In this document: piece after piece, positions 9,354 to 64,000 of the stretch
Layout: every line of letters starts with the position of its first letter
Position numbering within the stretch: position 1 is the first letter of the stretch
NCBI RefSeq assembly: GCF_024502345.1
Contig: NZ_JALDNN010000001.1
From: Escherichia coli
Lineage (GTDB): Bacteria; Pseudomonadota; Gammaproteobacteria; Enterobacterales; Enterobacteriaceae
Direction: 5' to 3' (one strand)
Length of the DNA stretch: 64,000 nt
The notes under the pieces: model-generated
Told to the model about the DNA's origin: nothing
The model's database searches: none
The model's input: only the letters and a program-made list of their open reading frames with translations
Position numbers and translations under genes: made by a program

Positions 9354-10655
<1,302 letters not shown>

Positions 10656-30943: not shown

Positions 30944-31161
30944 GAAACCATCCTTCATTTCAGCGCGTGTATAAAACGCGCCCACTGAACTGCACTGCCC
31001 AACATTGAGCGGGCAGCGTAAAAACCAATACAGAATTGATACCTGGATGATATCAAATATCCAGTCTTAAATTGTGGCCTTTAGCGGAAAAATGAAAACA
31101 TATGCTACAGAATGGCGCTTATCACGCCATTCTTCGCTGTTAATTCAGTAATTTTTCAGAA

Positions 31162-40152: not shown

Positions 40153-40184
40153 CTGATTAAACAGGGAAGTCAAACATTAAAATT

Positions 40185-40284
<100 letters not shown>

Positions 40285-40546
40285 AGAGCAACATACGCAA
40301 GTACAGCAACCTGTCATTAAACTGGGAAATTTAATCTTTGCCCGTTGCATAACCTTTAATTATTCATATACATTGCTGTTGTTACTCTTTATATAGCTAA
40401 CACCAATAATTAACCTTTCTTTTCTGTTTATATAGAGTGAGCACGGCTACTTATGTTATTTTAACAACTATTATTACCAAGCCCATTCATCTGGCTTATA
40501 AATTAAAATTAATTATTTAATTGAGAAATGGTTAGGGAGAACCTAC

Positions 40547-45630: not shown

Positions 45631-46107
45631 TTAATCCTGGCGATCGTCTTTATGATCAAGGCGGTCGCGGTCATCATCCTTTCGCTGGTACTCACCATCA
45701 AAAGTATTACCGCCACCGGTCCCGGCGCTAAAACCGCCGCCTGGCATACGAGAAAAGCGCAAATGCGGCATCAACTTCACTGTCAGATGCTTTTGCACCG
45801 GCGGCAATAAAAGCAGAAGACCGAGGAAGTCGGTGAAAAAGCCCGGTAATAAAAGCAGCAAACCGGCAATGATCAGCGAAACACTTTTAATCATCTCCGC
45901 CGCTGGGTTTTCACCCGCCGCCATTTTTTGCTGCATCAGCACGAAATTCTTAAAGCCCTGGTTACGTACCAGTGACATACCGATAACTGACGTGAATATA
46001 ACCAGCACGAGGGTCAGCAATACCCCCAATACATGGGCAACCTGAATAAAGATTGAAATCTCAATATAGACATAAAGGAAAATGGCAATAAAAGGTAACC
46101 AGCGCAA
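45631..46107 (-). CDS. fxsA: FxsA inner-membrane protein
   Basis: 158-aa ORF beginning MRWLPFIAIFLYVYIEISIFIQVAHVLG. Confidence 0.92.
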   Translation of the reverse strand: MRWLPFIAIFLYVYIEISIFIQVAHVLGVLLTLVLVIFTSVIGMSLVRNQGFKNFVLMQQKMAAGENPAAEMIKSVSLIIAGLLLLLPGFFTDFLGLLLLLPPVQKHLTVKLMPHLRFSRMPGGGFSAGTGGGNTFDGEYQRKDDDRDRLDHKDDRQD

Positions 46108-46241
46108 AGGTTTCTCCTGTAATAGCAGCCGGTAAAACCCGGCTACCTGAATGGGTTGCGAATCGCGTTCAGCTTATATTGTGGTCATTAGCAAAATTTC
46201 AAGATGTTTGCGCAACTATTTTTGGTAGTAATCCCAAAGCG

Positions 46242-46256
46242 GTGATCTATTTCACA
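46242..46256 (+). promoter_or_regulatory. Candidate CRP site in the aspA control region
   Basis: GTGATCTATTTCACA resembles the consensus TGTGA-N6-TCACA and lies about 190 bp upstream of the aspA ATG. aspA is known to be CRP/FNR regulated. Confidence 0.45.
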
Positions 46257-46443
46257 AATTAATAATTAAGGGGTAAAAACCGACACTTAAAGTGATCCAG
46301 ATTACGGTAGAAATCCTCAAGCAGCATATGATCTCGGGTATTCGGTCGATGCAGGGGATAATCGTCGGTCGAAAAACATTCGAAACCACATATATTCTGT
46401 GTGTTTAAAGCAAATCATTGGCAGCTTGAAAAAGAAGGTTCAC

Positions 46444-47880
46444 ATGTCAAACAACATTCGTATCGAAGAAGATCTGTTGGGTACCAGGGAAGTTCCAGCT
46501 GATGCCTACTATGGTGTTCACACTCTGAGAGCGATTGAAAACTTCTATATCAGCAACAACAAAATCAGTGATATTCCTGAATTTGTTCGCGGTATGGTAA
46601 TGGTTAAAAAAGCCGCAGCTATGGCAAACAAAGAGCTGCAAACCATTCCTAAAAGTGTAGCGAATGCCATCATTGCCGCATGTGATGAAGTCCTGAACAA
46701 CGGAAAATGCATGGATCAGTTCCCGGTAGACGTCTACCAGGGCGGCGCAGGTACTTCCGTAAACATGAACACCAACGAAGTGCTGGCCAATATCGGTCTG
46801 GAACTGATGGGTCACCAGAAAGGTGAATATCAGTACCTGAACCCGAACGACCATGTTAACAAATGTCAGTCCACTAACGACGCCTACCCGACCGGTTTCC
46901 GTATCGCAGTTTACTCTTCCCTGATTAAGCTGGTAGATGCGATTAACCAACTGCGTGAAGGCTTTGAACGTAAAGCTGTCGAATTCCAGGACATCCTGAA
47001 AATGGGGCGTACCCAGCTGCAGGACGCAGTACCGATGACCCTCGGTCAGGAATTCCGCGCTTTCAGCATCCTGCTGAAAGAAGAAGTGAAAAACATCCAA
47101 CGTACCGCTGAACTGCTGCTGGAAGTTAACCTTGGCGCAACAGCAATCGGTACTGGTCTGAACACGCCGAAAGAGTACTCTCCGCTGGCAGTGAAAAAAC
47201 TGGCTGAAGTTACTGGCTTCCCATGCGTACCGGCTGAAGACCTGATCGAAGCGACCTCTGACTGCGGCGCTTATGTTATGGTTCACGGCGCGCTGAAACG
47301 CCTGGCTGTGAAGATGTCCAAAATCTGTAACGACCTGCGCTTGCTCTCTTCTGGTCCACGTGCCGGCCTGAACGAGATCAACCTGCCGGAACTGCAGGCG
47401 GGCTCTTCCATCATGCCAGCTAAAGTAAACCCGGTTGTTCCGGAAGTGGTTAACCAGGTATGCTTCAAAGTCATCGGTAACGACACCACTGTTACCATGG
47501 CAGCAGAAGCAGGTCAACTGCAGTTGAACGTTATGGAGCCGGTCATTGGCCAGGCTATGTTCGAATCCGTTCACATTCTGACCAACGCTTGCTACAACCT
47601 GCTGGAAAAATGCATTAACGGCATCACTGCTAACAAAGAAGTGTGCGAAGGTTACGTTTACAACTCTATCGGTATCGTTACTTACCTGAACCCGTTCATC
47701 GGTCACCACAACGGTGACATCGTGGGTAAAATCTGTGCCGAAACCGGTAAGAGTGTACGTGAAGTCGTTCTGGAACGCGGTCTGTTGACTGAAGCGGAAC
47801 TTGACGATATTTTCTCCGTACAGAATCTGATGCACCCGGCTTACAAAGCAAAACGCTATACTGATGAAAGCGAACAGTAA
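46444..47880 (+). CDS. aspA: Aspartate ammonia-lyase
   Basis: ORF trimmed to [30 protein letters not shown] (478 aa). It carries the fumarase/aspartase signature [10 protein letters not shown]. Confidence 0.97.
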
Positions 47881-52144: not shown

Positions 52145-52220
52145 GCCCGGATAGCTCAGTCGGTAGAGCAGGGGATTGAAAATCCCCGTGTCCTTGGTTC
52201 GATTCCGAGTCCGGGCACCA
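52145..52220 (+). tRNA. pheU: tRNA-Phe (GAA)
   Basis: GCCCGGATAGCTCAGTCGGTAGAGCAGGGGATTGAAAATCCCCGTGTCCTTGGTTCGATTCCGAGTCCGGGCACCA is a 76-nt tRNA with anticodon GAA and an encoded CCA. It lies next to yjdC, as pheU does in K-12. Confidence 0.97.
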
Positions 52221-52231
52221 ATATTCATAAG

Positions 52232-52262
52232 GCCTCGCTGCAAAGCGGGGCTTTTTCCTTTT
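52232..52262 (+). terminator. tRNA-Phe terminator hairpin
   Basis: The stem GCCTCGC/GCGGGGC (one G-U pair) has a TGCAAA loop and is followed by TTTTTCCTTTT. Confidence 0.65.
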
Positions 52263-52390
52263 CTGGCTACGGTAGATTTCTGGTCGTTGCGGCACGTTAT
52301 TTGTTTGCTGGATTTCTCGCCATTTTCGCAGTTGTTCGTTACTTTTAGACACCTCAACATCCTTTGATGTACCTTTTCCTAACCTCACAG

Positions 52391-52417
52391 CTACGGTCTT
52401 TCTACGGTCCTCTACGA
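52391..52417 (+). repeat. Phased direct repeats CTACGGTC / CTACGGTC / CTACGA (10-11 bp register)
   Basis: Copies start at 52391, 52402 and 52412. A fourth copy, CTACGGTA, lies at 52267-52274. Confidence 0.6.
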
Positions 52418-52456
52418 TTCCTTTCTCTCAGAGCATTCATAATAAAGTAGAAAATA

Positions 52457-52560
52457 CGGGGAAAACGGGGGAATTATCATTTCGCCCTAATCCGCAGGTC
52501 TTAACGTGATTTTGTCGCGGGGAATAAGGTGGGGAAATCCCCAATAGCAAGCGGGGAAAT
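52457..52560 (+). repeat. Cluster of five direct CGGGGAA(A/T)-type repeats
   Basis: The copies are CGGGGAAAA at 52457, CGGGGGAATT at 52466, CGGGGAATA at 52518, TGGGGAAAT at 52530 (followed by CCCC) and CGGGGAAAT at 52552. An inverted copy AATCCCCCG lies at 52659-52667. Confidence 0.6.
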
Positions 52561-53071
52561 CTGGCAGCATACCCCCTCCACCATTCACATGGGGATCTTC
52601 ACCAGTCCGTCCACCTACAACAAGCTCTTCTTGCCCTTTCACTTCTTACCGTTTTCAGAATCCCCCGTTCTCCACGCCATCATAAAATGATTTATCCGTA
52701 AGCTTAACGTAATGGACTGTTGAACCTGAGTGTCCGCTGTGAGCGAAAAGCGGAACTTCTCACATAGGTAATGAAGCGTTTCCTAACGTCAGGGTGTACT
52801 AATCAACGAAGAGCAGGTCAGAGGACTCGAACCGCTTTCCTCTTCCATCTACGTAGAATTCCAAGAATTTATGTGCTTTCCAGTTACAATTTAGCCATGC
52901 TAAGTTAGAAAAAGCATTGAGTACCTTAGGATTGTATCGATGATACTCTAAGGATCTTGGAGGCTTGTGAGGCGTAAGGTTCAAAGCCAATAGTTTATTA
53001 ATAGTCACACAAGTGGCTCTATTTTTCGCCTACAAACCTATATTTTTCATACAAATAAAAGAAGTGTATTT

Positions 53072-54490
53072 ATGAATACTCAGCAAATTAAGGTTGGCAG
53101 TGTACCTGAAATTATTGAGCTATTACCAAACTCTAGCGAGCAGGCTGATTCTCATCCTTTCATCCTATCGGCAAACAGTGCATGGGGTGAACAGGGAGCA
53201 GAAATATCAATAGAGAGATTACGCCAAAATATCGAGCCTTGGCTAACAGCTCTCTTCCAATCCGAACATTTAAATTTATTGATAGGTGCGGGTTTAAGCA
53301 CGTCTATTCAAATATCGGCTACAGATTCACCTCCAGCTGGAATGGGTTGGATCAGCGATCTAGCCGTATGTAAAAGTGAAATAGATGCATTTTCTACTCT
53401 GGCTGCCAAAGCTGCAGGTCGCGATAACGGAAATATAGAAGATCAAATTAGAGCTATTAATGAACTTATTAAAGGGCTTGAAATTCTGACAGTGTTGAAT
53501 ACCCCTCAACCTGAAAATCCTCCAGCTCCTCATGCTGCTTATAGAAATCTAAAAACGGATTTAGAAATACTCAAGGGAGAGCTTTCTCGCTGCCTAGGTG
53601 AGTTTTCAAGATCTGTGAGTGCCGGAGAATACTTGATTAAAACTGCTGAACCAAAGCGTAAAGAGGAAACTTTCAACTATCTAGTTAGTTTCTTGATGAG
53701 CTTTGCAAGTAGGACCGCTACTCGCGATAGGTTGCATATTTTTACAACAAACTATGATCGCATTATTGAAGTAGGTGCTGAGCTTGCTGGTTTGAGACTT
53801 ATAGATCGCTTTGTAGGAAGTATCGCTCCAGTGTTTCGATCTTCAAGATTGGAGGTTGATTATCACTATAATCCTCCAGGAATTCGTGGCGAACCAAGAT
53901 ATTTAGAAGGCGTAGCGCGTTTTACTAAGCTTCATGGATCCCTTGATTGGCATGAACAAAATAGCGCGATTAGGCGCTTTGGTTTACCTTTTGGAGCACG
54001 TTCTGTTGAACCTTTTTTAGAAGCTGAAGGCCATCAAAGCAACAGCTTTGAACAACTTATGATTTACCCTAACTCAGTAAAAGATAGAGAAACTGCCGAG
54101 TACCCTTATGTTGAGCTATTTCGAGATCTAGCCGCAGCAACTAGCCGCCCAAATAGCACATTAGTCACCTATGGCTATAGCTTTGGTGATGAGCATATCA
54201 ACAGGGTAATTGAAGACATGCTTACAGTGCCTTCGACTCATGTAGTCATAATTGCCTTCGGAGATCCGCTTGGAAGAATCATAAATTTCATTAATAAGAG
54301 TGGAAGAAAAGCACAGATCACCCTATTAATGGGAGACCATTTAGGAGACCTCAAGACTTTAGTTGATAACTATTTACCTAAACCAGCTATTGATAAAGCA
54401 TCAATAAAAATGACTGAATTGCTTAAGCAAAGAGGATTTATCCAGCCCAAAGAATTAGGTAATTCAACTGGCTCCGAGGTATCACAATGA
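53072..54490 (+). CDS. SIR2-like (SIR2_2-type) NADase-family protein, first gene of a SIR2-HerA pair
   Basis: 472-aa ORF with the motifs LLIGAGLS (GAGxS Rossmann loop), FTTNYDRIIE, FTKLHGSLDW and YGYSFGDEHIN. These are characteristic of prokaryotic defence-associated SIR2 domains. Its stop overlaps the next start (ATGA at 54487-54490). Confidence 0.8.
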   Translation: MNTQQIKVGSVPEIIELLPNSSEQADSHPFILSANSAWGEQGAEISIERLRQNIEPWLTALFQSEHLNLLIGAGLSTSIQISATDSPPAGMGWISDLAVCKSEIDAFSTLAAKAAGRDNGNIEDQIRAINELIKGLEILTVLNTPQPENPPAPHAAYRNLKTDLEILKGELSRCLGEFSRSVSAGEYLIKTAEPKRKEETFNYLVSFLMSFASRTATRDRLHIFTTNYDRIIEVGAELAGLRLIDRFVGSIAPVFRSSRLEVDYHYNPPGIRGEPRYLEGVARFTKLHGSLDWHEQNSAIRRFGLPFGARSVEPFLEAEGHQSNSFEQLMIYPNSVKDRETAEYPYVELFRDLAAATSRPNSTLVTYGYSFGDEHINRVIEDMLTVPSTHVVIIAFGDPLGRIINFINKSGRKAQITLLMGDHLGDLKTLVDNYLPKPAIDKASIKMTELLKQRGFIQPKELGNSTGSEVSQ

Positions 54491-56520
54491 GTTACTTACC
54501 AATAGAAAGATTAGAACAATTAAGAATTGGATCTGTTGGATTTGTATCACCTAATGAAATTAGAGTTTCTTTAGAGATTGACTCCCCTGATTCAGTGTCA
54601 CTTCAAGGCGGTTCCCCCCGCAATTTTCCTCGAATAAATAGTTATGTACTGATCAGTAGCGATGATGGATTTCTCGTCGGACAGGTTGAATGGATTGCCG
54701 TAGAACACTCTCCATACCCCAAAAGAAGAGGCTTACAAGATTTTGGCTTGATAGATCTTCCTTTTCCACTTAAAAAGCTCAGTATCAATCCCGTTGGTAC
54801 TTTGAGAGTCGATAGAAAAAACGAAGATTACAAGTTCACAAGAGGAACAGATGCTTTTCCCTCGGTTGGTGACTCCGTGCTCCTGCCTACTGACCGGCAA
54901 TTAAAATCAATAATAGAATCAGGTGACAATAGAAGAGTAAAAATAGGGGACAGCCCCCTAGCTAACAATGCGGAAATAAAAGTGGACCCTGATAGGCTTT
55001 TTGGACGACATTTAGCTGTTTTGGGCAATACAGGTAGTGGTAAATCATGCTCGGTTGCGGGGTTAATTCAATGGTCTTTAGATGCTGTTTTACAACAGGG
55101 ACAGATTCCAAATGCTCGGTTCATAATACTTGATCCAAATGGAGAATACAGTAGGGCATTCGGCCCAGAATCAAAATACAAGGGTAAGCTATTACGTGTA
55201 GAAGCTAACACTGGTGCTGAAGAGATAGATCTTAAAGTTCCGTCATGGTTATGGAATAGCTCTGAGTGGGGTGCTTTCACTCAAGCGAGTTCAAAAGTTC
55301 AACTTCCTTTACTACGCCGAGCTTTGAGGGCGATGAGAAATGATGTTTTATCAGAAGATGATGTGACAATCCAAGCGAAACACTTCTGCGGTATCCTACT
55401 CGTATCCATACGACAATTATCAAGCCAAGGCCAGATATATGTGAATGGCGGCCATGCCAAAGGTTTCGTTGATAGTTTAACGTCTTGGAATAATAGCCTG
55501 TCCACATTAAACGACAAAATCGATAACAAACCTTTCGATAATCTAATAAACACGATGAATGTGTATCTTTCCTCTCGTATAGGAATAAAATGGCCTGAAA
55601 AACCTGAAGTTTCAGATACTGATCAGTTGATTAATGAATTAAAAAATGCATATGAAACGCTTGGAGGTGATGAACAAGGACTTCTTCCAAAAAGTGAAGA
55701 TTCGCCTATTCGTTTTAAAGGGGATGATTTTGTCGCATACCTAGAAGCTCTAGCTCAAGAGACAGGCACAGAGCAATTCGTTGAATTCCTTTTGACTCGT
55801 ATTCGAACAATGCTAGGTGACACCCGTATAAGTGCAGTAACAAATGATTCGGAACAGCCTATCAGTTTAACTAATTGGTTAGACACTTTTCTCGGTAGAG
55901 ATGGACAAGGTTCCATAACTGTTATCGATTTATCGCTAGTCCCTAATGAAATAATACATTTGGTAACTGCTGTAATTTCCAGAGTAACTTTTGAAGCATT
56001 ACAACGTTATCGAAGACTTAAGGGGAAACCACTACCAACAGTTATGGTTGCAGAAGAAGCGCATACATTTATTAAACGCTACAAAGAAGATAGTGAGGGT
56101 CAGTCAGTCTCTGACGTATGCTGCAAAGTGTTTGAAAAGATCGCACGTGAAGGCAGGAAATTTGGGTTAGGTCTTGTAGTTTCTTCCCAACGACCCTCAG
56201 AGCTATCTCCGACTGTGTTATCTCAATGTAATACTTTTTTGTTGCACAGGATTAGTAATGATAGAGATCAAGAGCAAGTCCATAGACTTGTTCCCGATAA
56301 CATGAGGGGGTTGTTGAGGGAGTTGCCATCGCTACCATCTCGGCATGCCATTCTACTAGGATGGGCTTCTGAACTTCCGGTTTTAGTTAGAATGAAAGAG
56401 CTTACTGAAAAACAAAGACCACAATCTGACGATCCCGATTTTTGGGATGTGTGGTCTAACACTACAGAAGAGCCTCGCGAAGTTAATTGGCAACCAATAG
56501 CTGATGATTGGCAAAGTTAA
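54487..56520 (+). CDS. HerA/FtsK-like (DUF87-type) ATPase, second gene of a SIR2-HerA pair
   Basis: 677-aa ORF. It has an N-terminal barrel-like segment (RIGSVGFVSPNEIRVSLE), Walker A LAVLGNTGSGKS and Walker B TVMVAEEAH. It also carries VVSSQRPSELSPTVLSQCNTFLLHRISNDRDQ, typical of HerA-clade ATPases. Confidence 0.85.
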   Translation: MSYLPIERLEQLRIGSVGFVSPNEIRVSLEIDSPDSVSLQGGSPRNFPRINSYVLISSDDGFLVGQVEWIAVEHSPYPKRRGLQDFGLIDLPFPLKKLSINPVGTLRVDRKNEDYKFTRGTDAFPSVGDSVLLPTDRQLKSIIESGDNRRVKIGDSPLANNAEIKVDPDRLFGRHLAVLGNTGSGKSCSVAGLIQWSLDAVLQQGQIPNARFIILDPNGEYSRAFGPESKYKGKLLRVEANTGAEEIDLKVPSWLWNSSEWGAFTQASSKVQLPLLRRALRAMRNDVLSEDDVTIQAKHFCGILLVSIRQLSSQGQIYVNGGHAKGFVDSLTSWNNSLSTLNDKIDNKPFDNLINTMNVYLSSRIGIKWPEKPEVSDTDQLINELKNAYETLGGDEQGLLPKSEDSPIRFKGDDFVAYLEALAQETGTEQFVEFLLTRIRTMLGDTRISAVTNDSEQPISLTNWLDTFLGRDGQGSITVIDLSLVPNEIIHLVTAVISRVTFEALQRYRRLKGKPLPTVMVAEEAHTFIKRYKEDSEGQSVSDVCCKVFEKIAREGRKFGLGLVVSSQRPSELSPTVLSQCNTFLLHRISNDRDQEQVHRLVPDNMRGLLRELPSLPSRHAILLGWASELPVLVRMKELTEKQRPQSDDPDFWDVWSNTTEEPREVNWQPIADDWQS

Positions 56521-56626
56521 TTAACTTAACTAATTTTTAGTAGTGTTATAAGTAGTGGCTTATATCTGACATGACAGTTTAGGTTAGTAGTTTCAATCTA
56601 ACAGTAAGTGTCCACGGTGACGTTTT

Positions 56627-56665
56627 CATACTCAAATCTCCTGAAATGTGGGAGATTTGAGTATG
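56627..56665. other. Perfect 15-bp-stem hairpin in the convergent intergenic region
   Basis: CATACTCAAATCTCC - TGAAATGTG - GGAGATTTGAGTATG. There is no flanking U-run on either strand. Confidence 0.6.
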
Positions 56666-56941
56666 GTTGTCCCTTATGAGCGAGGAGCGGAAGTTCTGCT
56701 TTAAGTGTATCAAACCCTCCAGCAAAGATGTTCTTGAATGTAATGCCATAATTTCCCTAACATTCCAGCACAAATCAATTAACTCTCAGTCCATAGTGTA
56801 TTTTACTTAAATTAAAATCAAATACTCTAGGAATTAAAATAACAAGATCACTTGCGATTATGCTATTTTAAATTAATATTTTTGTTTTTACTGGGGAACC
56901 TTCAAAACACGGAGCCAGATTTCTTCGTAGCTACCCTGTTG

Positions 56942-57766
56942 CTAGGGTTTCAAGTATTCCCCTAAAGGAAAGAAATTTTTTGACAACTTTTGGGATTCAG
57001 CAATTTTAACCAAATAAATATAGAATCCCAACAGAGCACTGTTCTCGCTTTCCCCCCTCGAATAGTGAACATGCCCAGGCACCTTCCGGATGAGGAAACC
57101 ATTATTTTTTACCAAATAATACCCTCTATCTAAAATTGTAATTACATCAGGCATATCATCTAAATCGATATTATTTCCAGTCATGTAATTAAACAGCGAA
57201 TCTCGTAAGGTACTTTCCTCTGGACCTTGGAAGGCTAGTAGTAAGAATGGTGTTTTTCTCAAGGTTGCACACATCCCTGAGATTTCCTCTACTAATTGCA
57301 CTGTATTTTGGGGAATATTTTCTTTCATAAAATAACCATCGTCAATACCGATTGGATTGATTCTTACCAAACCTTTTGACCTAACGCAAGCATCTAAGGT
57401 TGTCTTAAGGTTTGAAGCTCCTTCGGTCATTGAGCCAGTGTTTAATGAAGATTTACATTCAATTAACGCTAAAGCTGAATCGACAGGGACCATACACTGA
57501 TCTTTATCATAACTAAGTTTTAAAGAATGTTTCGAGTATATGATAATATCCATCTGACTTGAGAGATTATCCTTAGAGTCAAAAACCTGTCCTGATGTAA
57601 TATCTAAATTACTAGGGAGATTTGCTTTTAAAAATTCCCTTATTACAATTTCTCTAGCACTTCCTTTGCTACTCCCGTTCGTCGTTATGGATGACAAATT
57701 AAATGCTGAAACCAAAGATGCCGTATGGTTTTTTAAGTGTTTCTGGATTAATTTCATAAAGCTCAT
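56942..57766 (-). CDS. Hypothetical protein with an N-terminal PD-(D/E)xK-like nuclease motif (reminiscent of DUF6602, from memory)
   Basis: 274-aa ORF in AT-rich DNA. It contains SKGSAREIVIREFLKANLP...SGQVFDSKDNLSSQMDIIIY...ALALIECKSSL, giving E39/E44, D73 and E103-x-K105 in the order expected for restriction-endonuclease-fold enzymes. The C-terminal half has no motif I recognise. Confidence 0.6.
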   Translation of the reverse strand: MSFMKLIQKHLKNHTASLVSAFNLSSITTNGSSKGSAREIVIREFLKANLPSNLDITSGQVFDSKDNLSSQMDIIIYSKHSLKLSYDKDQCMVPVDSALALIECKSSLNTGSMTEGASNLKTTLDACVRSKGLVRINPIGIDDGYFMKENIPQNTVQLVEEISGMCATLRKTPFLLLAFQGPEESTLRDSLFNYMTGNNIDLDDMPDVITILDRGYYLVKNNGFLIRKVPGHVHYSRGESENSALLGFYIYLVKIAESQKLSKNFFPLGEYLKP

Positions 57767-58194
57767 TCCATTTTAATTTATCTACATCGCTTAAAGGCAA
57801 ATGATGCCACCGGCTACCAATTAAAAATTATCTCAACCTGAGAGATTTTTCCAGACTCCAAACGAAAATAAAAAACTACTCGTCACGTCCCTCCTGGCAC
57901 ATAGCCGACACCAAAACCAGCAACATATGGACAACGGTCCCTGCCCTGATGGCAGGTAATTGTATCAGACTTAAACACATATTATTTCTGTGAACTCCCC
58001 CCAACGGCAGTCCTTTCCTCTGAAGACCAGAACCAGACCGTAAAGCCTGCTCTTTCTGCATTTCCCGTATTAATTCATACCATGTGGCACCAGCATTCCC
58101 TTCGCCACACCAGAAAATCAATTCCCCAATAAAAAAGTGCCGTGCCGGGGATGGGTCAACCCTGACGTTCTTTACACCAGTCACAGGAGGTTAT

Positions 58195-59379
58195 ATGTCC
58201 ACCCCCAAACGCTTCCGTTTTACTAATCAGCTCATTAAATCCCTGCCCCCTAACACATCCGATGCACGCAGTACCGATGCCGAATACAGCGACACCGAGA
58301 TTTCCGGCCTCAAGTGTCTGGTCAGCAGAAGAGAAGGTCGTAAAAAGTTTTTGCTACGCTACCTTTATCATGGACGAAAACGCGCCATCGCCATTGGTCA
58401 CTGGCCTGAAGTGGACGTCAATCTTGCTCGTCAGATTGCCATAGAACACAAACGTTCCCTTGCCACCGGCACTGACCCTAAGCAGGAGCGTGAAAACAAG
58501 AGAATGGAGCTGACGTTCGATGAACTCTTTAATCAGCATTATCTGCCATGGGCAAAATCCGCTAAACGCAGTTGGGGAAAGGATGTTCAGCGCTACCGCG
58601 ATCATATCCGTCCCGCCATTGGTCAGAGGCTGCTGAGCGATATCACACCAGCGAGCATTCTGCGCCTTCAGCAGACGTTAAGTACTTCCCTGTCAGCAGC
58701 TACCTGTAACCGTGTCATCGTACTCATTAAAGCCGTCTTTACATGGGCCGGAAGGCAAAGCATGACCTCTGTCCATCCGGCAAGGGTGGTACAGCTTCTC
58801 AGGGAGAACAACGCCCGACAGCGCTATTTCACCGAGGACGAAATTCGTCGTATTTTTCTCTCCGCCGATAACGATACCAGCCCCGTCGCGGCCCGCTATG
58901 TCAAACTGTTGTTACTGACCGGCCTTCGTCGTGATGAGCTGCGTCTGGCTAAGTGGGAGCATGTTGACCCGGTTAAACGCACCCTGTGGCTCCCGGAAAC
59001 CAAGAATGGCTATGGGCGGATTGTTCACCTTAACTCACTGGCGATGGACGTAATCAGAACGCTGCCAACGCAGCGGGGAAATCCGTGGTTGTTTATCGGT
59101 AAAAAACAAGGAATGCCGCTGAATAACCCCGTTAAAGCCTTTCAGCGTATCGTTCGTCGGGCGGGAATTTTCGACCAGGAAGTGTGTATTCATACCTGCC
59201 GCCATTCGGTTGCCGCCCTCATCGTGTCCTACGGCGGAACACTGTATGACGTTCAGGCTCAACTGGGGCACCGCAGCAGTCAGTCTTCACAACGTTATGC
59301 GCATCTTCACCCTCAGCGCTTACAAAACACCAGTCAGTTACTGGCGGAAAGGATAACGGCTCAGCTACCGTCCTTGTGA
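58195..59379 (+). CDS. Tyrosine-type site-specific integrase (int1)
   Basis: ORF 58084..59379 trimmed to the ATG at 58195, preceded by AGGAGG (MSTPKRFRFTNQLIKSLPPN..., 394 aa). It has an N-terminal arm-binding-like segment (IAIGHWPEVDVNLARQIA). The catalytic signature is TGLRRDEL, HTCRHS, LGHRS and RYAH. Confidence 0.88.
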   Translation: MSTPKRFRFTNQLIKSLPPNTSDARSTDAEYSDTEISGLKCLVSRREGRKKFLLRYLYHGRKRAIAIGHWPEVDVNLARQIAIEHKRSLATGTDPKQERENKRMELTFDELFNQHYLPWAKSAKRSWGKDVQRYRDHIRPAIGQRLLSDITPASILRLQQTLSTSLSAATCNRVIVLIKAVFTWAGRQSMTSVHPARVVQLLRENNARQRYFTEDEIRRIFLSADNDTSPVAARYVKLLLLTGLRRDELRLAKWEHVDPVKRTLWLPETKNGYGRIVHLNSLAMDVIRTLPTQRGNPWLFIGKKQGMPLNNPVKAFQRIVRRAGIFDQEVCIHTCRHSVAALIVSYGGTLYDVQAQLGHRSSQSSQRYAHLHPQRLQNTSQLLAERITAQLPSL

Positions 59380-59434: not shown

Positions 59435-59791
59435 TCAGAACGGGATGGCCCCATATTCTTCATCCGGCACCCGGTTATCATCAAATCTGTTATAGAGTTC
59501 ACGAGCACACTCGCGCGCGTCTTTAATAGACATACGAGGGAACCTGCCGAGGGGTTCATAATAGCAGGCCCCTTCAAGCGTATAACGAGCCAGGAATTTA
59601 ATCTCACCGTTGGCAATGACGGCCCGGAGCGCAGGCTCGCTGCCATCGAAGATTTCACGAGAAATGCCGTGATAAAGGCACTCCGCCAGTGTGTTAACCA
59701 GAGCGTAATCATTGAATGAGGTTTTTTCTTCATTTTCGCTGCTGATAGCGTGAGGAAAACCGTCATAGTACTGGTCTGATTCAAAAATCAT
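59435..59791 (-). CDS. Small protein carrying a stand-alone integrase N-terminal (DUF4102-like arm-binding) domain
   Basis: 118-aa ORF with an AAGGTG Shine-Dalgarno 5-10 nt upstream of the ATG. GEIKFLARYTLEGACYYEPLGRFPRMSIKDARECARELYNRF aligns by eye with int2 GRIKFIVRKSIRGKNIYVAVGGYPEISIKDAREHAFKIIQEL. Confidence 0.7.
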   Translation of the reverse strand: MIFESDQYYDGFPHAISSENEEKTSFNDYALVNTLAECLYHGISREIFDGSEPALRAVIANGEIKFLARYTLEGACYYEPLGRFPRMSIKDARECARELYNRFDDNRVPDEEYGAIPF

Positions 59792-59840
59792 ACATCACCT
59801 TCTATTGGTTGTTATTCAGTCAAAATGGTTTTATTCAGGG

Positions 59841-61769
59841 TTAAAATTCGGTCATCACATTGCATTTCAGAAACGCTTTTTTGACCTGGTAGTAAGACTG
59901 CGCCATCGTCTTCAGCGCTCTTTTTTTATAGTGTCCGGCACTTTCGCCAAGCAGATAACCGGAACGCTCTAACGGTCTGGCCACATCAACGGTCTTAAGT
60001 CCCTTTTCAGAACAGAGCTTTTCAAACACCGATTCATAAATCAGGAAGTCGCCGGTTTTGTAATGGACGAATCCCCACATATCTCCCGGGCATCGGGCAT
60101 GTTCGTCACGCAGGGTGATAAAGTGCCTGCTGCTTTTTGTCACCAGCGTCAGCTGAAGCTCCTCCAGCATGTTACGCACCGGGTTATACTGATTCTGGTT
60201 ATCATCCAGCCAGCGTCGTGCAGCGGACATAACGGATTCAGCCACCGCATCGCTTTCGAAAGGTAAAAGGCCATATTTCAGCGCCTTCTCTCCTGCCAGC
60301 CATACCAGCGCAAATCTTTTCAGTCCGCGCCGCTGAACGCGGGTAATATCACGCCCCTCATCCCTCAGGGCCTCTTCCAGTGCGTTACAGCAATCATCTG
60401 TCTGTTCCTGGAGCCAGGATGAAAACTCTGCGTAGGTGCGAAGACCGCCAGCCGTATTTTTCCCGGATAACAGTTTGCCGATAAATGCAGGCCCGGCATG
60501 ACCATAAGCCTCTGCCAGCCCCGTCTTCAGTGCATCTGCACGGGCACGTGTTTCTGATACCGGTTCATCCGGTTTTTGAGCATCCTCAGGCAACAGTTCC
60601 ATACTGATGGCCCTGTGCTCCTGCCCTCCCTGTAACACGGCTTTCTGTTCAGCCAGCTTTTCGGAGATTGACATCTCACCGGTGGAGAGAATAAACATGC
60701 GCCATTTAAACGGCTCATCTGCCGTCAGGCCACGGTTCAGGCGCTCTTTTGCCGTACCTGACGTAATGTTGTAAAGCAGTGAGGAAAGTTGCTTATGATT
60801 ACTCGCACCCAGTTCATCGACGCAGGCGACCAGACCGGAATAGTCAGCGAGAAGGCGCTCCATCGCGTTAGGCGTGGTATTCCAGCGAATAATATTTACA
60901 TTCCCCCCACTACCCGGCTCGCTGCCATCACCATGGACCGATGCAGCCAGCATCAGGAGAAGCGTTTTACCGGTGGTGGATACGCCGTGAAAATGAAACA
61001 TGCCCACATCCATACCGGCAGGAACCAGAAGCATCGAAGCAAAGGACGCACTCAGTGCAAAGGTCTGCGCCCAGCCATGGACATTTTCCCGGATGAGGTT
61101 AATCCACTCCTCCAGGGCCCCACCTTTGTGCAGTCCGGGACGCACGCGGAATCCCGGCAGTAGATAATCAAACCCGGTCAGAGAGGTCACAACGGGCTCA
61201 TGACCATGTAAAAAGGCCATATCCTCCGAAACGAATCCCATCGCATCTGCCATCAGATAGACAGGCAGCGGTAAACTCCGGCAGCGCTGAAGAAAACGGT
61301 CAAAAAGGGCAAACTGCTGTGGAGAGGAGCCAACACAAAATCCACGATCTGCCAGTTTGCCTACTACCTGAGCACCGCTCTGAACAATATCCTCAAAGCG
61401 TACCAGGGCCTTAACATACTTACCCAGCCCGTTACCGGTCATCAGGCTGATCCCAAGACCGGACTCCTTATCTTTTCCACAAAACAGGGCGACAGGCACA
61501 ACTGGCGTGGTGCAAACCTGCACAGGTTTCTGTCCACCGATGTAGAAAAGGCCATTAGCCGTATTCACATAATGCCGTGGCAGCCCATCACCAATACCGA
61601 GTGAAGCGATATCATCTTCACCGACCTCAGTGTTTTCAGCACGCCTGATAATTGCTTCCGACATTTTGTTGAAATTTTTATCGCGGTCAGCAAAAGCGCG
61701 AATACGCTTAATCCCGGAAACCTTAGGAACATTAGTTGTCACTTTTTTATTCATGTGTATTACCATCAA
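59841..61769 (-). CDS. DUF927-like P-loop helicase / replication initiator of a mobile element (start codon uncertain)
   Basis: 642-aa ORF. Its N-terminal region (NGLFYIGGQKPVQVCTTPVVPVALFCGKDKESGLGISL...) resembles DUF927 as I recall it. Walker A is HGVSTTGKT and Walker B is LVACVDELG. The alternative start MNKKVTT lies 5 codons in. Confidence 0.7.
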   Translation of the reverse strand: MMVIHMNKKVTTNVPKVSGIKRIRAFADRDKNFNKMSEAIIRRAENTEVGEDDIASLGIGDGLPRHYVNTANGLFYIGGQKPVQVCTTPVVPVALFCGKDKESGLGISLMTGNGLGKYVKALVRFEDIVQSGAQVVGKLADRGFCVGSSPQQFALFDRFLQRCRSLPLPVYLMADAMGFVSEDMAFLHGHEPVVTSLTGFDYLLPGFRVRPGLHKGGALEEWINLIRENVHGWAQTFALSASFASMLLVPAGMDVGMFHFHGVSTTGKTLLLMLAASVHGDGSEPGSGGNVNIIRWNTTPNAMERLLADYSGLVACVDELGASNHKQLSSLLYNITSGTAKERLNRGLTADEPFKWRMFILSTGEMSISEKLAEQKAVLQGGQEHRAISMELLPEDAQKPDEPVSETRARADALKTGLAEAYGHAGPAFIGKLLSGKNTAGGLRTYAEFSSWLQEQTDDCCNALEEALRDEGRDITRVQRRGLKRFALVWLAGEKALKYGLLPFESDAVAESVMSAARRWLDDNQNQYNPVRNMLEELQLTLVTKSSRHFITLRDEHARCPGDMWGFVHYKTGDFLIYESVFEKLCSEKGLKTVDVARPLERSGYLLGESAGHYKKRALKTMAQSYYQVKKAFLKCNVMTEF

Positions 61770-61838
61770 ATTACGCCACCGTCAGAAAACGGGTGCATCA
61801 GAACCATAGTTAAAAACCATACCGTTGAGTGAAGGTTG

Positions 61839-63251
61839 TTACCCCATCGCCCGGTTAACGACTTCGTGGTAACGCGCCGGGGAAGCGTGCAAGTAAAGCT
61901 CCGTTACTTTGATAGTGCTGTGACCCAATAAGTCTTTGACGGTGTGAATGTCGGCCCCGCTCTCAATGAGCTTTGTCGCAAAGGTATGACGCATCTCATG
62001 GATGGTGAACGGTGGAATACCCGCAGCCTCACAAAGTCGTTTTTGCAGGCGACGCGGCTCAGCAACCGGATTGTCGGTTCCCTTGCCCGGAAATACCCAG
62101 CCTTCATCACCCAGATGCTGACGCTGTTCTGTCAGAAGAACGAAAGCCTTATCACATACCGGTACACGGCGTAGTTTGCCGTTTTTGGTATGGCGAAGGG
62201 TGATAACCTTGCGGCTCCAGTCCACATCTTCAAGACGAAGGTGACGGGTTTCCCCCAGACGCAGCCCCGTCAGGGCAAGGAACATGAGAAGAGCAAGGGC
62301 TTCATGATCGGGTTTACCATTACGCCAGCGCTCACAGACGTCCATCCAGCGCTGAAGCTGGGAGTCATCCATGGCACGGCGATCTGACGTCACTTCAGGC
62401 AGCGCTTTGATATAAAGCGCCGGAGAGCGGCTGATGTATCCCATGCGTATAGCCCAGGTAAACACCGCTTTAATGAGCGCCAGATGGCGGTTGCGGGTGG
62501 CAGGCTTGAGATCGAGATTATGCAGATAGCTCAGAATATCTGCCTCCGTCATACCTGCCAGCTTTTTGTCACCGAGAAGAGGGCGCAGGTATTTACGGAT
62601 CTTAGAAAGGTCGGTGTTAGCTGAACGCTTAACGCCCGTGCTGAGTACGCTTTTCTCATACTCATCCACAAGCTCATTAAACGTCATTTTACTGTGAGTA
62701 AGAAAACGCTCACCGTAAGCCTCAACGGCGGTCTTGAGCTCCTGAATTATTTTAAAGGCATGCTCCCTTGCATCTTTAATTGAAATTTCCGGGTAGCCTC
62801 CTACGGCAACGTAGATATTCTTTCCGCGAATACTTTTGCGGACAATAAATTTAATGCGACCTGATGGATAGAATATTGCCTTAAGTCCGGTTAACTTCTT
62901 ATCGCTGGTCTCGATTGTTTGTGCAGCTTGTACTGCACGGATTTTATATTCATCAAAAAGGGCTTTAGTAAAAACACCTCCAGTATTTTTAGGTGCAACC
63001 CCTGGATATTCTACAACATCAGATACTCCAGAGTCGGAATACCCCTGAGCTTCCACATCTACATTGAAGGAATTTTTATGAGCAGCTGTGATGCTCTTTT
63101 CATCCAGCACTTGCGTTATTTTATTTAAAGGGTAATTAACTTTCATAATATGTACATGGTCCTCTGAAAATTCAGATGATAATGAGTAATTTAATATGTC
63201 GGCCAACAATGGGATAAGCTTATTTATTCGTGGCATCACTTTCAAGCCCAT
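61839..63251 (-). CDS. Tyrosine-type site-specific integrase (int2), with a long N-terminal extension
   Basis: 470-aa ORF. It has an arm-binding segment (VAVGGYPEISIKDAREHA) and a catalytic signature of TGLRLGETRHL, HEMRHTFAT, LLGHSTIKVTELYLH. The start codon is uncertain because no clear Shine-Dalgarno is visible. Confidence 0.85.
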   Translation of the reverse strand: MGLKVMPRINKLIPLLADILNYSLSSEFSEDHVHIMKVNYPLNKITQVLDEKSITAAHKNSFNVDVEAQGYSDSGVSDVVEYPGVAPKNTGGVFTKALFDEYKIRAVQAAQTIETSDKKLTGLKAIFYPSGRIKFIVRKSIRGKNIYVAVGGYPEISIKDAREHAFKIIQELKTAVEAYGERFLTHSKMTFNELVDEYEKSVLSTGVKRSANTDLSKIRKYLRPLLGDKKLAGMTEADILSYLHNLDLKPATRNRHLALIKAVFTWAIRMGYISRSPALYIKALPEVTSDRRAMDDSQLQRWMDVCERWRNGKPDHEALALLMFLALTGLRLGETRHLRLEDVDWSRKVITLRHTKNGKLRRVPVCDKAFVLLTEQRQHLGDEGWVFPGKGTDNPVAEPRRLQKRLCEAAGIPPFTIHEMRHTFATKLIESGADIHTVKDLLGHSTIKVTELYLHASPARYHEVVNRAMG

Positions 63252-63317
63252 GAAAAATCAGCTCTTACATGCCCATTGACATTTAATACTCAAGTCAGAA
63301 AGACCATGATGATTCAT

Positions 63318-63331
63318 CAGGAGTACTCCTG
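63318..63331. promoter_or_regulatory. Perfect 14-bp palindrome upstream of int2
   Basis: CAGGAGTACTCCTG lies 67-80 bp upstream of the annotated int2 start. It is a candidate operator. Confidence 0.3.
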
Positions 63332-63423
63332 CTCAGGGAAAAGGGAAAATAGCGTTAAACCCTATAAAAAAATTGTGTTCCGGATGCATCGCCCAAAGTA
63401 AGTCAACTTTTGAGGCCCTGAAG

Positions 63424-64000
63424 GGCTTTGTTGAATAAATCAGATTTCGGGTAAGTCTCCCCCGTAGCGGGTTGTGTTTTCAGGCAATACGCACGCTTTC
63501 AGGCATACCTGCTTTCGTCATTTTGTTCAGCGCTCGTACCAGGGCCATAGCCTCCGCAACCTGACCATCGTAGTCACGCAGCGTCAGTGAACCCCCGAAC
63601 AGCTGTTTTACCCGGTACATCGCCGTTTCCGCTATCGAGCGACGGTTGTAATCTGTTGTCCATTTCCACCGCGCATTACGCTGATTAGCCACTGCACGGT
63701 TACGGTCTGCATATTCACCGGGCCAGTAACCCGCACCTTTTCGGGGAGGGATAAGCGCGCTGATTTTCTTACGCCGCAGTTCATCGTGACAGAGCCGGGT
63801 GTCGTAAGCGCCGTCTGCCGATGCTGCCCTGATTTTTCTGTGAGTCTGCCGGATAAGACCCGGGAAGGCTTCTGAGTCCGTCACATTGTTCAGCGACAGG
63901 TCAGCGCAGATGATTTCATGTGTTTTACTGTCAACGGCGAGATGCAGCTTACGCCAGATACGGCGGCGTTCCTGGCCATGCTTTTTGACTTTCCACTCGC
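63424..64000. mobile_element. IS903-like element (IS5 family), truncated by the window edge
   Basis: The terminal inverted repeat GGCTTTGTTGAATAAATC starts at 63424, followed by the transposase C-terminus on the minus strand. Confidence 0.85.
63480..64000 (-). CDS. IS903-family DDE transposase (C-terminal part; N-terminus outside the window)
   Basis: The frame stays open to the window edge. It translates ...RRRIWRKLHLAVDSKTHEIICADLSLNNVTDSEAFPGLIRQTHRKIRAASADGAYDTRLCHDELRRKKISALIPPRKGAGYW...AGMPESVRIA, matching IS903/IS102 transposase as I recall it. Confidence 0.85.
   Translation of the reverse strand, partial: EWKVKKHGQERRRIWRKLHLAVDSKTHEIICADLSLNNVTDSEAFPGLIRQTHRKIRAASADGAYDTRLCHDELRRKKISALIPPRKGAGYWPGEYADRNRAVANQRNARWKWTTDYNRRSIAETAMYRVKQLFGGSLTLRDYDGQVAEAMALVRALNKMTKAGMPESVRIA

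What the first reader, a model, noticed from the sequence alone, without database searches (positions are those of the whole stretch)
56942..57766. Orphan 274-aa PD-(D/E)xK-like protein convergent on SIR2-HerA: candidate undescribed single-gene defence or accessory effector
The gene has the same AT-rich composition as SIR2-HerA but is transcribed convergently, so it is a separate transcription unit.
- Its N-terminal third shows acidic/lysine residues in restriction-endonuclease order: E39/E44 in SAREIVIREF, D73 in QMDIIIY and E103-C-K105 in LIECK.
- About 150 further residues carry no motif I recognise.
- No methyltransferase, ATPase or toxin-antitoxin partner is adjacent.

A stand-alone nuclease-fold gene embedded in a defence cassette is the pattern from which new single-gene defence systems have repeatedly emerged. 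I do not recognise it as a named system.
Basis: inference. Interest (0 to 1): 0.7.

Follow-up and report, generated by a model that had tools for sequence, protein, structure and literature searches.

The report
Stand-alone NucC-like defence nuclease gene
The gene encodes a complete relative of NucC, a DNA-cutting enzyme that bacteria normally switch on with a small signal molecule to stop viruses. Here it travels alone among other anti-virus genes, so it is a likely one-gene defence of a kind that has already been reported.

Summary
The true start is probably M4, giving 271 aa.

NucC's cA3 pocket is not kept. Arg53 becomes Asn, Tyr81 becomes a variable His, and the gate-loop hairpin is replaced by a longer insertion. 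No cyclase lies nearby in any of 15 independent contexts.

Of those contexts, 10 have known or candidate defence systems as neighbours, 3 are prophage accessory-gene slots, and only 2 contain SIR2-HerA. No neighbouring gene is conserved. Two E. coli strains keep SIR2-HerA but have IS903B in place of this gene.

The best reading is an autonomous, mobile, one-gene defence nuclease that is not a SIR2-HerA accessory. A DUF6602 single-gene system, Damona, has already been validated experimentally (Darracq et al. 2024). The finding is therefore a new member or variant of a known kind, and its trigger is unknown.

The parts
56942..57757 (-). It encodes a full-length NucC-family (DUF6602) PD-(D/E)xK endonuclease.
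   Evidence: ORF. Homologues start at MKLIQ. An invariant GGA lies 9-11 nt upstream of this ATG in 10 loci. Fold matches are; the profile-profile alignment is.
57758..57766 (-). Three extra codons (MSF) of the mechanically longest ORF; probably not translated.
   Evidence: The first ATG is present only in the window and its closest relative, directly abutting the GGA. The NCBI protein is 271 aa.
57401..57694 (-). Region matched by Pfam DUF6602 (residues 25-122): the nuclease core with the motifs G35-x-x-R38-E39, D73 and E103-x-K105.
   Evidence: Pfam E = 7e-21. PADLOC PD_DExK and NucC models. PDB NucC phmmer/hmmsearch hits.
57548..57550 (-). Codon for Asp73, the catalytic metal ligand, equivalent to NucC Asp73.
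   Evidence: Invariant in A1, A2 and A3. Aligned to NucC D73. The D73N mutation kills NucC (paper 10.1101/694703).
57452..57460 (-). Codons for Glu103-Cys104-Lys105, the ExK catalytic motif, equivalent to NucC Glu104-Ala-Lys106.
   Evidence: E103 and K105 are invariant in A1 and A2. Alignment to NucC EAK.
57248..57364 (-). Residues 135-173, a family-specific insertion in place of NucC's gate-loop hairpin. It spans 39 residues against 21 in NucC, is predicted as two helices, and begins with the invariant motif R135-I-N-P-x-G-x-D-x-x-Y145.
   Evidence: Secondary structure of the model. hhalign shows a 17-residue insertion here. Invariant columns. Column counts.
56945..57247 (-). C-terminal part (residues 174-274) completing the NucC fold. 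Ser262 aligns with NucC Thr226.
57767..57880 (-). A 5' region of about 110 nt that moves with the gene. It includes the GGA ribosome-binding site at 57767-57769. The promoter was not identified.
   Evidence: Conserved among the window, L018 (lambdoid prophage), L019 and L012 (P2-like prophage), although the surrounding genes are unrelated. The consensus scan found no promoter upstream of the gene on this strand.
56915..57794 (.). The 880-bp segment (the gene plus 27-28 nt on each side) that is replaced by IS903B in E. coli cS33a and fM51a. SIR2-HerA and the integrase remain intact there.
   Evidence: and the blastn break points.
53072..56520 (+). Neighbouring SIR2-HerA defence operon. It is a separate system and not part of this gene's module.
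   Evidence: PADLOC SIR2 3e-154 and HerA 2e-252. It occurs without the DUF6602 gene in other E. coli genomes.
52145..52220 (+). tRNA-Phe, marking one side of the variable cargo slot that holds SIR2-HerA and this gene.
   Evidence: ARAGORN and Rfam. Other E. coli carry different defence cargo in the same slot.
58084..59379 (+). Tyrosine integrase bounding the other side of the cargo slot.
   Evidence: Pfam Phage_integrase and Arm-DNA-bind_3. Annotated as an integrase in the related E. coli locus.

Best explanation
The gene encodes a complete, catalytically intact homologue of NucC, the PD-(D/E)xK DNA endonuclease that serves as the effector of CBASS and some type III CRISPR systems. This copy has become a self-contained, horizontally mobile, one-gene module.

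Shown:
- The fold is NucC-like over the full length.
- The metal-binding and catalytic residues E39, D73, E103 and K105 are invariant.
- The gene moves between defence islands and prophage accessory slots with its own 5' region and without any conserved partner.
- No cyclase is nearby in any context.
- It is independent of SIR2-HerA.

Inferred:
- It acts as an anti-phage or anti-mobile-DNA defence, like the validated DUF6602 single-gene system Damona, by Mg2+-dependent cleavage of double-stranded DNA.
- Like NucC, it is probably an oligomer that stays inactive until infection.
- Its allosteric region has been rebuilt. NucC Arg53 becomes Asn, Tyr81 becomes a variable His, Thr226 becomes Ser, and the gate-loop hairpin is replaced by a 39-residue conserved insertion. 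The activating cue is therefore most likely not cyclic tri-AMP from a dedicated cyclase. It is more likely an unidentified infection signal sensed by the protein itself.
- The outcome would be destruction of phage DNA, host DNA or both (abortive infection).
For: Family and fold:
- Pfam DUF6602, 7e-21. PADLOC PD_DExK 6e-27 and NucC 2e-15 / 7e-14.
- The only PDB sequence hits are NucC. Bona fide NucC carries PF20247.
- AlphaFold model: pLDDT 88.7, pTM 0.89.
- Foldseek: the top 14 PDB hits are all NucC, E 2e-14 to 2e-11, TM 0.60-0.76 normalised to NucC.
- hhalign against a NucC alignment: probability 98.9%, 223 columns.

Active site: G35, R38, E39, G59, D73, E103 and K105 are invariant in 71 sequences down to 24% identity.

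Pocket:
- NucC needs R53, Y81, T226, H136 and Y141 (paper 10.1101/694703).
- The family's columns are N18/S2/D1 at position 53, L21 at 54, H15/Y3/R1/S1/T1 at 80 and S21 at 262. These positions are unconserved in the wider clade.
- R53, Y54 and Y81 are invariant in the NucC alignment.

Context:
- Of 15 independent loci, 10 have defence neighbours confirmed by PADLOC or Pfam, 3 are prophage slots and 2 are neither. SIR2-HerA is present in 2 of 15 and a cyclase in 0 of 15.
- No neighbouring gene is conserved. The 5' region is conserved.
- The same tRNA-Phe slot holds a dCTP deaminase or a restriction enzyme in other E. coli.

Precedent: Damona, a single-gene DUF6602 cassette with the same Cas PD_DExK and CBASS endonuclease matches, protects against phage.
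Against: - There is no experimental evidence for this protein, and its similarity to Damona itself could not be measured because I could not obtain the Damona sequence.
- Thr226 is conservatively kept as an invariant Ser262, and His80 could still stack a base, so binding of some nucleotide ligand is not excluded.
- Oligomeric state could not be predicted with the tools available.
- Two contexts (P. moorei L002, Shewanella L006) show no defence neighbours.
- The gene is rare: 20 clusters at 90% identity, and none in 5,426 complete E. coli genomes.
- It is repeatedly found disrupted. That fits a costly defence gene, but it equally fits a dispensable or toxic passenger.
- No phage-genome copy was found in INPHARED or IMG/VR.
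Confidence: 0.65

Rival explanations
1. Orphan signal-dependent effector. The protein is still switched on by a cyclic oligonucleotide (cA3 or a related molecule) made by a CBASS cyclase or a type III CRISPR Cas10 encoded elsewhere in the genome or on another mobile element. It would then be a 'plug-in' effector rather than an autonomous system.
For: - The fold is NucC over the full length, including the non-core embellishments.
- Thr226 aligns to an invariant Ser262, and position 80 is mostly His or Tyr, which could stack a base.
- The region replacing the gate loop is strongly conserved, as expected for a functional regulatory element.
Against: - Arg53, essential for cA3 activation of NucC, is Asn/Ser/Asp here. 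The invariant NucC motif LPxRY is LPSNL.
- The latch residues His136 and Tyr141 and the hairpin itself are not retained.
- No cyclase lies within 10 kb in 15 contexts across at least five genera.
- The family sits in prophages and small islands that move between hosts, where a trans-acting cyclase cannot be relied on.
- Damona was found by expressing a single cassette.
Confidence: 0.12
2. Solitary restriction-type endonuclease. The protein is constitutively active and tells foreign from self DNA by sequence or base modification (type IV-like or methylation-dependent type II-like). It would need no infection-triggered activation.
For: - No methyltransferase is adjacent, as expected for a modification-dependent enzyme.
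- It is often next to RM systems.
Against: - NucC itself is largely sequence non-specific and insensitive to methylation.
- No separate DNA-reading domain is visible in the model.
Confidence: 0.12
3. Accessory effector of the adjacent SIR2-HerA system. The nuclease would be recruited or activated by SIR2-HerA, for example by an NAD+-derived product.
For: - It is physically adjacent and convergent in the window, with similar AT-rich composition.
- A second family member (72% identity) lies in an island that also has SIR2-HerA about 3 kb away.
Against: - In that second island a Septu system lies between the two.
- 13 of 15 contexts have no SIR2-HerA.
- At least 17 E. coli genomes carry a related SIR2-HerA (83-85% nucleotide identity), and the gene is absent from all 5,426 complete E. 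coli genomes.
- Two strains with a 99.9% identical SIR2-HerA have the gene cleanly replaced by IS903B.
- The gene carries its own 5' region into unrelated contexts.
Confidence: 0.04
4. Not a defence gene. It would be a nuclease serving the mobile elements that carry it (for example addiction, exclusion of competing elements, or DNA processing), or a decaying passenger.
For: - It is always on mobile or accessory DNA.
- It is repeatedly found disrupted.
- Two contexts have no defence neighbours.
Against: - Sequence conservation is strong over the full length, with invariant catalytic residues across 51-91% identity. This argues for purifying selection.
- The slots it occupies (P2 after the tail fibre genes, the lambdoid nin/Q regions, tRNA-integrase cargo) are typical of defence cargo. 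The carriers are of unrelated types: P2-like and lambdoid prophages, an ICE-like island, a mobilisable element and a comM-inserted island. A carrier-specific function is therefore unlikely.
Confidence: 0.07

Closest known systems
NucC (CBASS type III effector and type III CRISPR ancillary nuclease; PDB 6P7O, 6P7P, 6Q1H, 6UXF, 7ZGV)
   Same: - Same Pfam family (DUF6602/PF20247).
- Same catalytic motif (I-D-x30-E-x-K, plus the upstream G-x-x-x-E), same N-terminal helices and similar size (271 against 241 aa).
- Both are found in anti-phage loci.
   Different: - No CD-NTase, HORMA/TRIP13 or Cas10 partner in any of 15 contexts.
- cA3 contacts are not kept: Arg53 to Asn, Tyr81 to variable His. Thr226 to Ser is the only conservative change.
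- The gate-loop hairpin with its His136/Tyr141 latch is replaced by a 39-residue insertion, predicted helical, with its own invariant motif.
- Only 16-20% sequence identity.
Damona (single-gene anti-phage cassette of the Vibrio cholerae N16961 chromosomal integron; Darracq et al., bioRxiv 10.1101/2024.07.02.601686)
   Same: - A single gene.
- A DUF6602 domain, plus matches to the Cas PD_DExK and CBASS small-endonuclease profiles. This is exactly the profile pattern found here.
- Homologues outside Vibrio are often in prophages or near integrases.
- The mechanism is unknown.
   Different: - Direct sequence similarity could not be measured.
- The word-indexed homology searches retrieved no protein named as from Vibrio cholerae. 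Together with about 26% identity to other orphan DUF6602 proteins, this suggests a different subfamily. It may fall outside the blastp criterion the authors used (E < 1e-5, at least 50% coverage).
- The context here is a tRNA-integrase cargo slot in an enterobacterium, not an integron cassette.
Type IIP restriction endonucleases of the CCGG family (Kpn2I, PspGI, NgoMIV, SgrAI, Bse634I, Cfr10I)
   Different: - Much weaker similarity.
- No cognate methyltransferase.
- It has the NucC-type embellishments instead of the DNA-recognition elements of these enzymes.
Other stand-alone PD-(D/E)xK defence nucleases (for example Shedu SduA)
   Same: The concept is the same: a single-gene nuclease-fold defence found in defence islands.

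Membership tests
PD-(D/E)xK nuclease superfamily | A restriction-endonuclease-like alpha/beta core with the (E)...D...(D/E)xK catalytic motif. | tested here: met
   E39, D73, E103 and K105 are invariant. Structural matches to NucC and to more than 15 restriction enzymes.
DUF6602 / NucC family (Pfam PF20247) | Score above the Pfam gathering threshold. | tested here: met
   74.6 bits against a cut-off of 27, E = 7e-21. NucC itself carries PF20247.
DUF6602 / NucC family (Pfam PF20247) | Full-length structural homology to NucC, not only to the nuclease core. | tested here: met
NucC proper (cA3-activated effector) | cA3-contact residues Arg53, Tyr81 and Thr226. All three are essential in E. coli NucC. 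| tested here: not met
   Arg53 becomes Asn/Ser/Asp. Tyr81 becomes His/Tyr/Arg/Ser/Thr. Thr226 becomes an invariant Ser. So one residue is lost, one is variable and one is conservatively kept.
NucC proper (cA3-activated effector) | A gate-loop hairpin with the His136/Tyr141 latch. | tested here: not met
   There are 39 residues with two predicted helices in place of a 21-residue hairpin segment, and no aligned His. The alignment in this region has low confidence.
NucC proper (cA3-activated effector) | Encoded in an operon with a CD-NTase (CBASS) or a type III CRISPR-Cas locus. | tested here: not met
   No cyclase, HORMA/TRIP13 or Cas10 gene lies within 10 kb in 15 independent contexts.
NucC proper (cA3-activated effector) | A homotrimer that assembles into a hexamer on activation. 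| not testable with these tools
   No multimer prediction is available. The N-terminal helices used for hexamer packing in NucC are present in the model.
Damona (DefenseFinder single-gene system) | A single-gene system with a DUF6602 domain that also matches the Cas PD_DExK and CBASS small-endonuclease profiles. | tested here: met
   against the description. No neighbour is conserved.
Damona (DefenseFinder single-gene system) | Sequence homology to the V. cholerae N16961 Damona protein (authors' criterion: blastp E < 1e-5 and at least 50% coverage), or a hit to the DefenseFinder Damona model. | not tested
   The Damona sequence and model could not be obtained. The supplement text held does not contain the names, and the PADLOC 2.0.0 library predates the system.
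Damona (DefenseFinder single-gene system) | Experimentally shown anti-phage activity. | not testable with these tools
   Requires a phage challenge experiment.
SIR2-HerA system (as a third component) | Conserved co-occurrence with the SIR2 and HerA genes. | tested here: not met
   Co-occurrence in 2 of 15 contexts. The gene is absent from all E. coli SIR2-HerA loci in complete genomes, and it is replaced by IS903B next to an intact SIR2-HerA.
Type II restriction-modification system | A cognate methyltransferase adjacent to the endonuclease. | tested here: not met
   No methyltransferase flanks the gene in the window. Where RM genes are nearby in other loci, they form complete pairs of their own.

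The most novel reading that the evidence does not exclude
A NucC-fold nuclease has dispensed with its cyclase. The cA3 pocket and gate loop have been rebuilt into a built-in sensor (the N53/H80/S262 surface plus the conserved R135-INPxGxDxxY145 insertion). This sensor would directly recognise an infection cue, either a phage protein or a metabolite. That would make a minimal, self-contained sensor-effector, and would show how two-component signalling immunity can collapse into a single gene.
Probability: 0.3. Interest if true: 0.6.

Novelty: new member of a known kind. Interest (0 to 1): 0.4.

Why it matters
- It turns an 'orphan hypothetical' into a specific, testable protein: a cyclase-free NucC homologue with an intact active site and a remodelled regulatory region.
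- Single-gene DUF6602 defence (Damona) has been shown to work, but its mechanism is unknown. This enterobacterial family comes with a confident structural model, a residue-level comparison with NucC and clear mutational targets (D73, K105, N53, S262, and the 135-145 motif). It therefore offers a tractable system for asking how a signal-dependent effector becomes autonomous.
- It shows that the gene next to SIR2-HerA is an independent neighbour. This matters for anyone dissecting that system from this locus.
- It does not define a new class of immunity.

Tried and rejected
- First AlphaFold run on the 21 close homologues gave an unusable model (pLDDT 45). It was replaced by a run on an 81-sequence alignment.
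- NCBIfam gave no hit. PHROGs gave only a weak hit of unknown function.
- No copy was found in 50,697 phage genomes by tblastn, in IMG/VR or in BFVD structures. Plasmid hits are only distant DUF6602 proteins.
- The GTDB species-representative scan found only the Motilimonas copy. The metagenome scan added four loci, of which L023 looks like the P0009 locus again and L024/L025 count as one context, but none of the near-identical enterobacterial copies.
- The AFDB50 library was unavailable.
- Attempts to obtain the Damona sequence or locus tag from the paper's supplement failed.
- A hidden partner, either a small ORF or a conserved neighbour, was sought with all-against-all tblastx of 1.5-kb flanks of 13 loci. 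None was found apart from near-identical islands and a shared resolvase.
- A conserved RNA structure in the 5' region is weak: -6.35 kcal/mol with 2 compensatory pairs among 4 sequences. Rfam finds only the tRNA.
- No direct repeat of the tRNA 3' end marks the island boundary.
- The convergent 'endonuclease' after a related SIR2-HerA in E. coli XH1815 is an unrelated Endonuclease I.
Full report
**Observation.** It converges on HerA (54487-56520) across a 421-bp spacer in which the consensus scan finds no terminator. It is AT-rich (GC 0.359). SIR2 and HerA are at 0.407 and 0.408, and the flanking integrase and core genes are at 0.52-0.54. The motif residues are at the stated positions. One correction concerns the start. 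All homologues begin at the second ATG (MKLIQ...). An invariant GGA lies 9-11 nt upstream of that ATG in ten loci, and the first ATG exists only in the window and its nearest relative. The identical protein in NCBI, [quoted passage not shown], is 271 aa. The product is therefore most likely 271 aa, encoded by 57757-56945 plus the stop codon.

**What the protein is.** It is not unrecognisable. Pfam assigns residues 25-122 to DUF6602 (E = 7e-21). PADLOC matches the CRISPR-associated PD_DExK profile (6e-27) and two NucC effector profiles (2e-15 and 7e-14). The only PDB sequences it hits are the five NucC entries (with a family profile, E down to 6e-19). Bona fide "CBASS effector endonuclease NucC" carries the same Pfam domain.

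**Active site.** Across 71 sequences down to 24% identity, the invariant columns are G35, R38, E39, G59, D73, E103 and K105. D73 and E103-x-K105 align with NucC D73 and E104-A-K106. NucC D73N abolishes both nuclease activity and immunity. E44 is not conserved.

**Regulatory region.** NucC is activated when cyclic tri-AMP binds a three-fold pocket. The contacts are Arg53, Tyr81 and Thr226 (plus the Val227 main chain), and the pocket is closed by a gate-loop hairpin latched by His136 and Tyr141. Mutating any of these abolishes activation. In my NucC alignment R53, Y54 and Y81 are invariant.

In this family the equivalent positions are as follows:
- Position 53 is N18/S2/D1.
- Position 54 is L21.
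- Position 80 is H15/Y3/R1/S1/T1.
- Position 262, which aligns with T226, is an invariant Ser.

In the wider orphan clade these columns are not conserved at all. NucC has 21 residues between the conserved Arg that ends the post-catalytic helix and the next core strand. This family has 39, predicted as two helices and opening with an invariant R135-I-N-P-x-G-x-D-x-x-Y145 motif. The canonical cA3 signature is therefore lost. A conserved element of different shape occupies the same place. I read this as a remodelled regulatory site, but that is an inference. The alignment there has low confidence, and I could not predict the oligomer.

**Context.** I examined 15 independent loci that carry family members at 51-100% identity.

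Known or candidate defence systems are neighbours in ten:
- SIR2-HerA (the window).
- PDC-S59 (L019).
- Septu, SIR2-HerA and a PDC-S33-like RelA/SpoT protein (L010).
- A type VI retron reverse transcriptase in a comM-inserted island (L014).
- DRT UG17-SLATT and bSEFIR (L015).
- PDC-S28 and two RM systems (L003-5, P. aeruginosa).
- SacI-type RM and OLD (L017).
- PIN-TPR-GreABC and PDC-S20 (L013).
- SoFic (L026).
- AbiD on a mobilisable element (L024).

Three are prophage accessory slots:
- A lambdoid prophage, after gene P (L018, 91% identity).
- A P2-like prophage, directly after the tail-fibre assembly gene (L012).
- A lambdoid prophage, after the Q antiterminator (L008, Motilimonas).

Two show nothing telling (L002, L006).

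No cyclase or Cas10 appears in any locus. All-against-all tblastx of the flanks finds no conserved neighbour. About 110 nt of 5' sequence, however, travels with the gene through four unrelated contexts. In the window, the slot between tRNA-Phe and the integrase is itself a variable cargo site. Other E. coli carry an anti-phage dCTP deaminase or a restriction endonuclease there.

**Relation to SIR2-HerA.**
- SIR2-HerA lies within 10 kb in 2 of 15 contexts, and in the second a Septu system lies between the two.
- Related SIR2-HerA operons (83-85% nucleotide identity) occur in at least 17 complete E. coli genomes. The two loci I inspected are a P2-like prophage hotspot and a conjugative element.
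- The DUF6602 gene has no blastn match in any of the 5,426 complete E. coli genomes.
- In the two genomes that share this exact island (99.9% identity over SIR2-HerA), window 56915-57794 is replaced by IS903B. That segment is the gene plus 27-28 nt on each side.

The accessory-effector idea is therefore disfavoured. The two are neighbours in a defence hotspot.

**What is already known.** A full-text search for DUF6602 finds one paper, Darracq et al. (bioRxiv 10.1101/2024.07.02.601686). The authors expressed 88 cassettes of the V. cholerae N16961 chromosomal integron and found 16 with anti-phage activity. One of these, Damona, is a single gene with a DUF6602 domain. It is "further matched by" the Cas PD_DExK and CBASS_Endonuc_small profiles, which is the same pattern I see here. 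Its homologues elsewhere are often in prophages, and its mechanism was left open. DefenseFinder output in a later paper lists Damona as a system type.

I could not obtain the Damona sequence, so orthology is untested. The word-indexed homology searches retrieved no protein named as from V. cholerae. Other orphan DUF6602 proteins are only about 26% identical over the N-terminal half. This enterobacterial/Pseudomonas/Shewanella family is therefore probably a different subfamily of the same kind.

**Abundance.** The close family is small. It has 20 clusters at 90% identity and three representatives at 50% identity with full-length scores. These sit within a superfamily of 4,269 representatives at E <= 1e-3. 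The identical protein is seen on 76 contigs of E. coli, Enterobacter and Citrobacter. Several cluster members are split or truncated, for example 75 and 183 aa on one E. roggenkampii chromosome. Together with the IS903B replacement, this suggests recurrent inactivation, as is common for costly defence genes. Some of the truncated entries may simply be contig ends.

**Mechanism, with confidence.**
- That it is a NucC-family PD-(D/E)xK endonuclease: about 0.97.
- That it is an independent one-gene module and not part of SIR2-HerA: about 0.85-0.9.
- That its biological role is defence against phage or mobile DNA: about 0.75, from context and the Damona precedent.
- That it is not driven by cA3 from a dedicated cyclase: about 0.6-0.7, from the pocket residues and the absence of cyclases.
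- What triggers it is unknown.

The main rivals are a trans-activated orphan effector, a constitutive restriction-type enzyme, a SIR2-HerA accessory, and a function that is not defence.

**Verdict.** The nuclease and stand-alone-defence reading is supported. The claim of an undescribed system is not. The protein is a new member, arguably a distinct subfamily, of the already reported kind "single-gene DUF6602/NucC-like defence nuclease". Interest is moderate. The useful new points are the full-length NucC homology, the loss of the cA3 signature with a conserved replacement element, and the clear independence from SIR2-HerA.

Noticed in passing
window 52145-59379; L029; rows H20-H23: The slot between tRNA-Phe and the integrase is a variable defence-cargo hotspot. 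This window holds SIR2-HerA plus the DUF6602 gene. E. coli AW1.7 holds an 'anti-phage dCTP deaminase' there, and strains G3/10 and EH09-18-41 hold a 'restriction endonuclease'. The integrase, Arm-binding and DUF927 genes are shared.
   Followed up: partly
window 56915-57794; L001 7916-8972: In E. coli cS33a and fM51a (Malawi), IS903B (1057 bp) replaces exactly the DUF6602 gene plus 27-28 nt on each side. SIR2-HerA remains 99.9% identical and intact.
   Followed up: yes
cluster of P0001/P0350: Several members of the 90% cluster are split or truncated: 75 and 183 aa on one Enterobacter roggenkampii chromosome, and 226 and 183 aa E. coli fragments. This suggests recurrent pseudogenisation, though some may be contig-end artefacts.
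   Followed up: no
window 57767-57880 (minus strand); L018, L019, L012: About 110 nt upstream of the gene is conserved across four unrelated genomic contexts. RNAalifold predicts a weak hairpin there (-6.35 kcal/mol, 2 compensatory pairs in 4 sequences). The simple scan found no sigma-70 consensus promoter.
   Followed up: partly
alignment A3: A separate subfamily of DUF6602 proteins about 380 aa long keeps Lys/Arg at position 53 and Tyr/Phe at position 54, like NucC's LPxRY. It has an extra C-terminal region of about 110 residues. Its contexts and ligand are unexplored.
   Followed up: no
L021 3150-4327 (A. baumannii plasmid pA2503); L015 10001-13471: SEC-C-motif proteins lie immediately downstream of DUF6602 genes in two unrelated settings. 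On pA2503 it is a 109-aa protein that follows an Abi-family gene and the DUF6602 gene. In the DRT/bSEFIR island it is a 726-aa protein. This may be a recurring partner for some subfamilies.
   Followed up: no
L026 9950-10813: The metagenomic copy at 68% identity appears interrupted. The ORF list shows only a 198-aa frame (9950-10546), although tblastn matches residues 3-273.
   Followed up: no
L027 and L028: Close relatives of this SIR2-HerA operon sit in a P2-like prophage hotspot (between ogr and the tail genes) and in a conjugative element next to traN. The latter is followed by a convergent Endonuclease I gene unrelated to DUF6602.
   Followed up: partly
window 59435-63884: Beyond the integrase lie an Arm-DNA-binding-like ORF, a DUF927 protein (59841-61769), a second integrase (61839-63251) and a transposase-like fragment (63480-63884). 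This suggests tandem integrative elements at this tRNA.
   Followed up: no
window 30001-31000, 40001-41000, 46001-47000: Other low-GC patches (0.42-0.45 against a window mean of 0.51) may mark further horizontally acquired segments.
   Followed up: no
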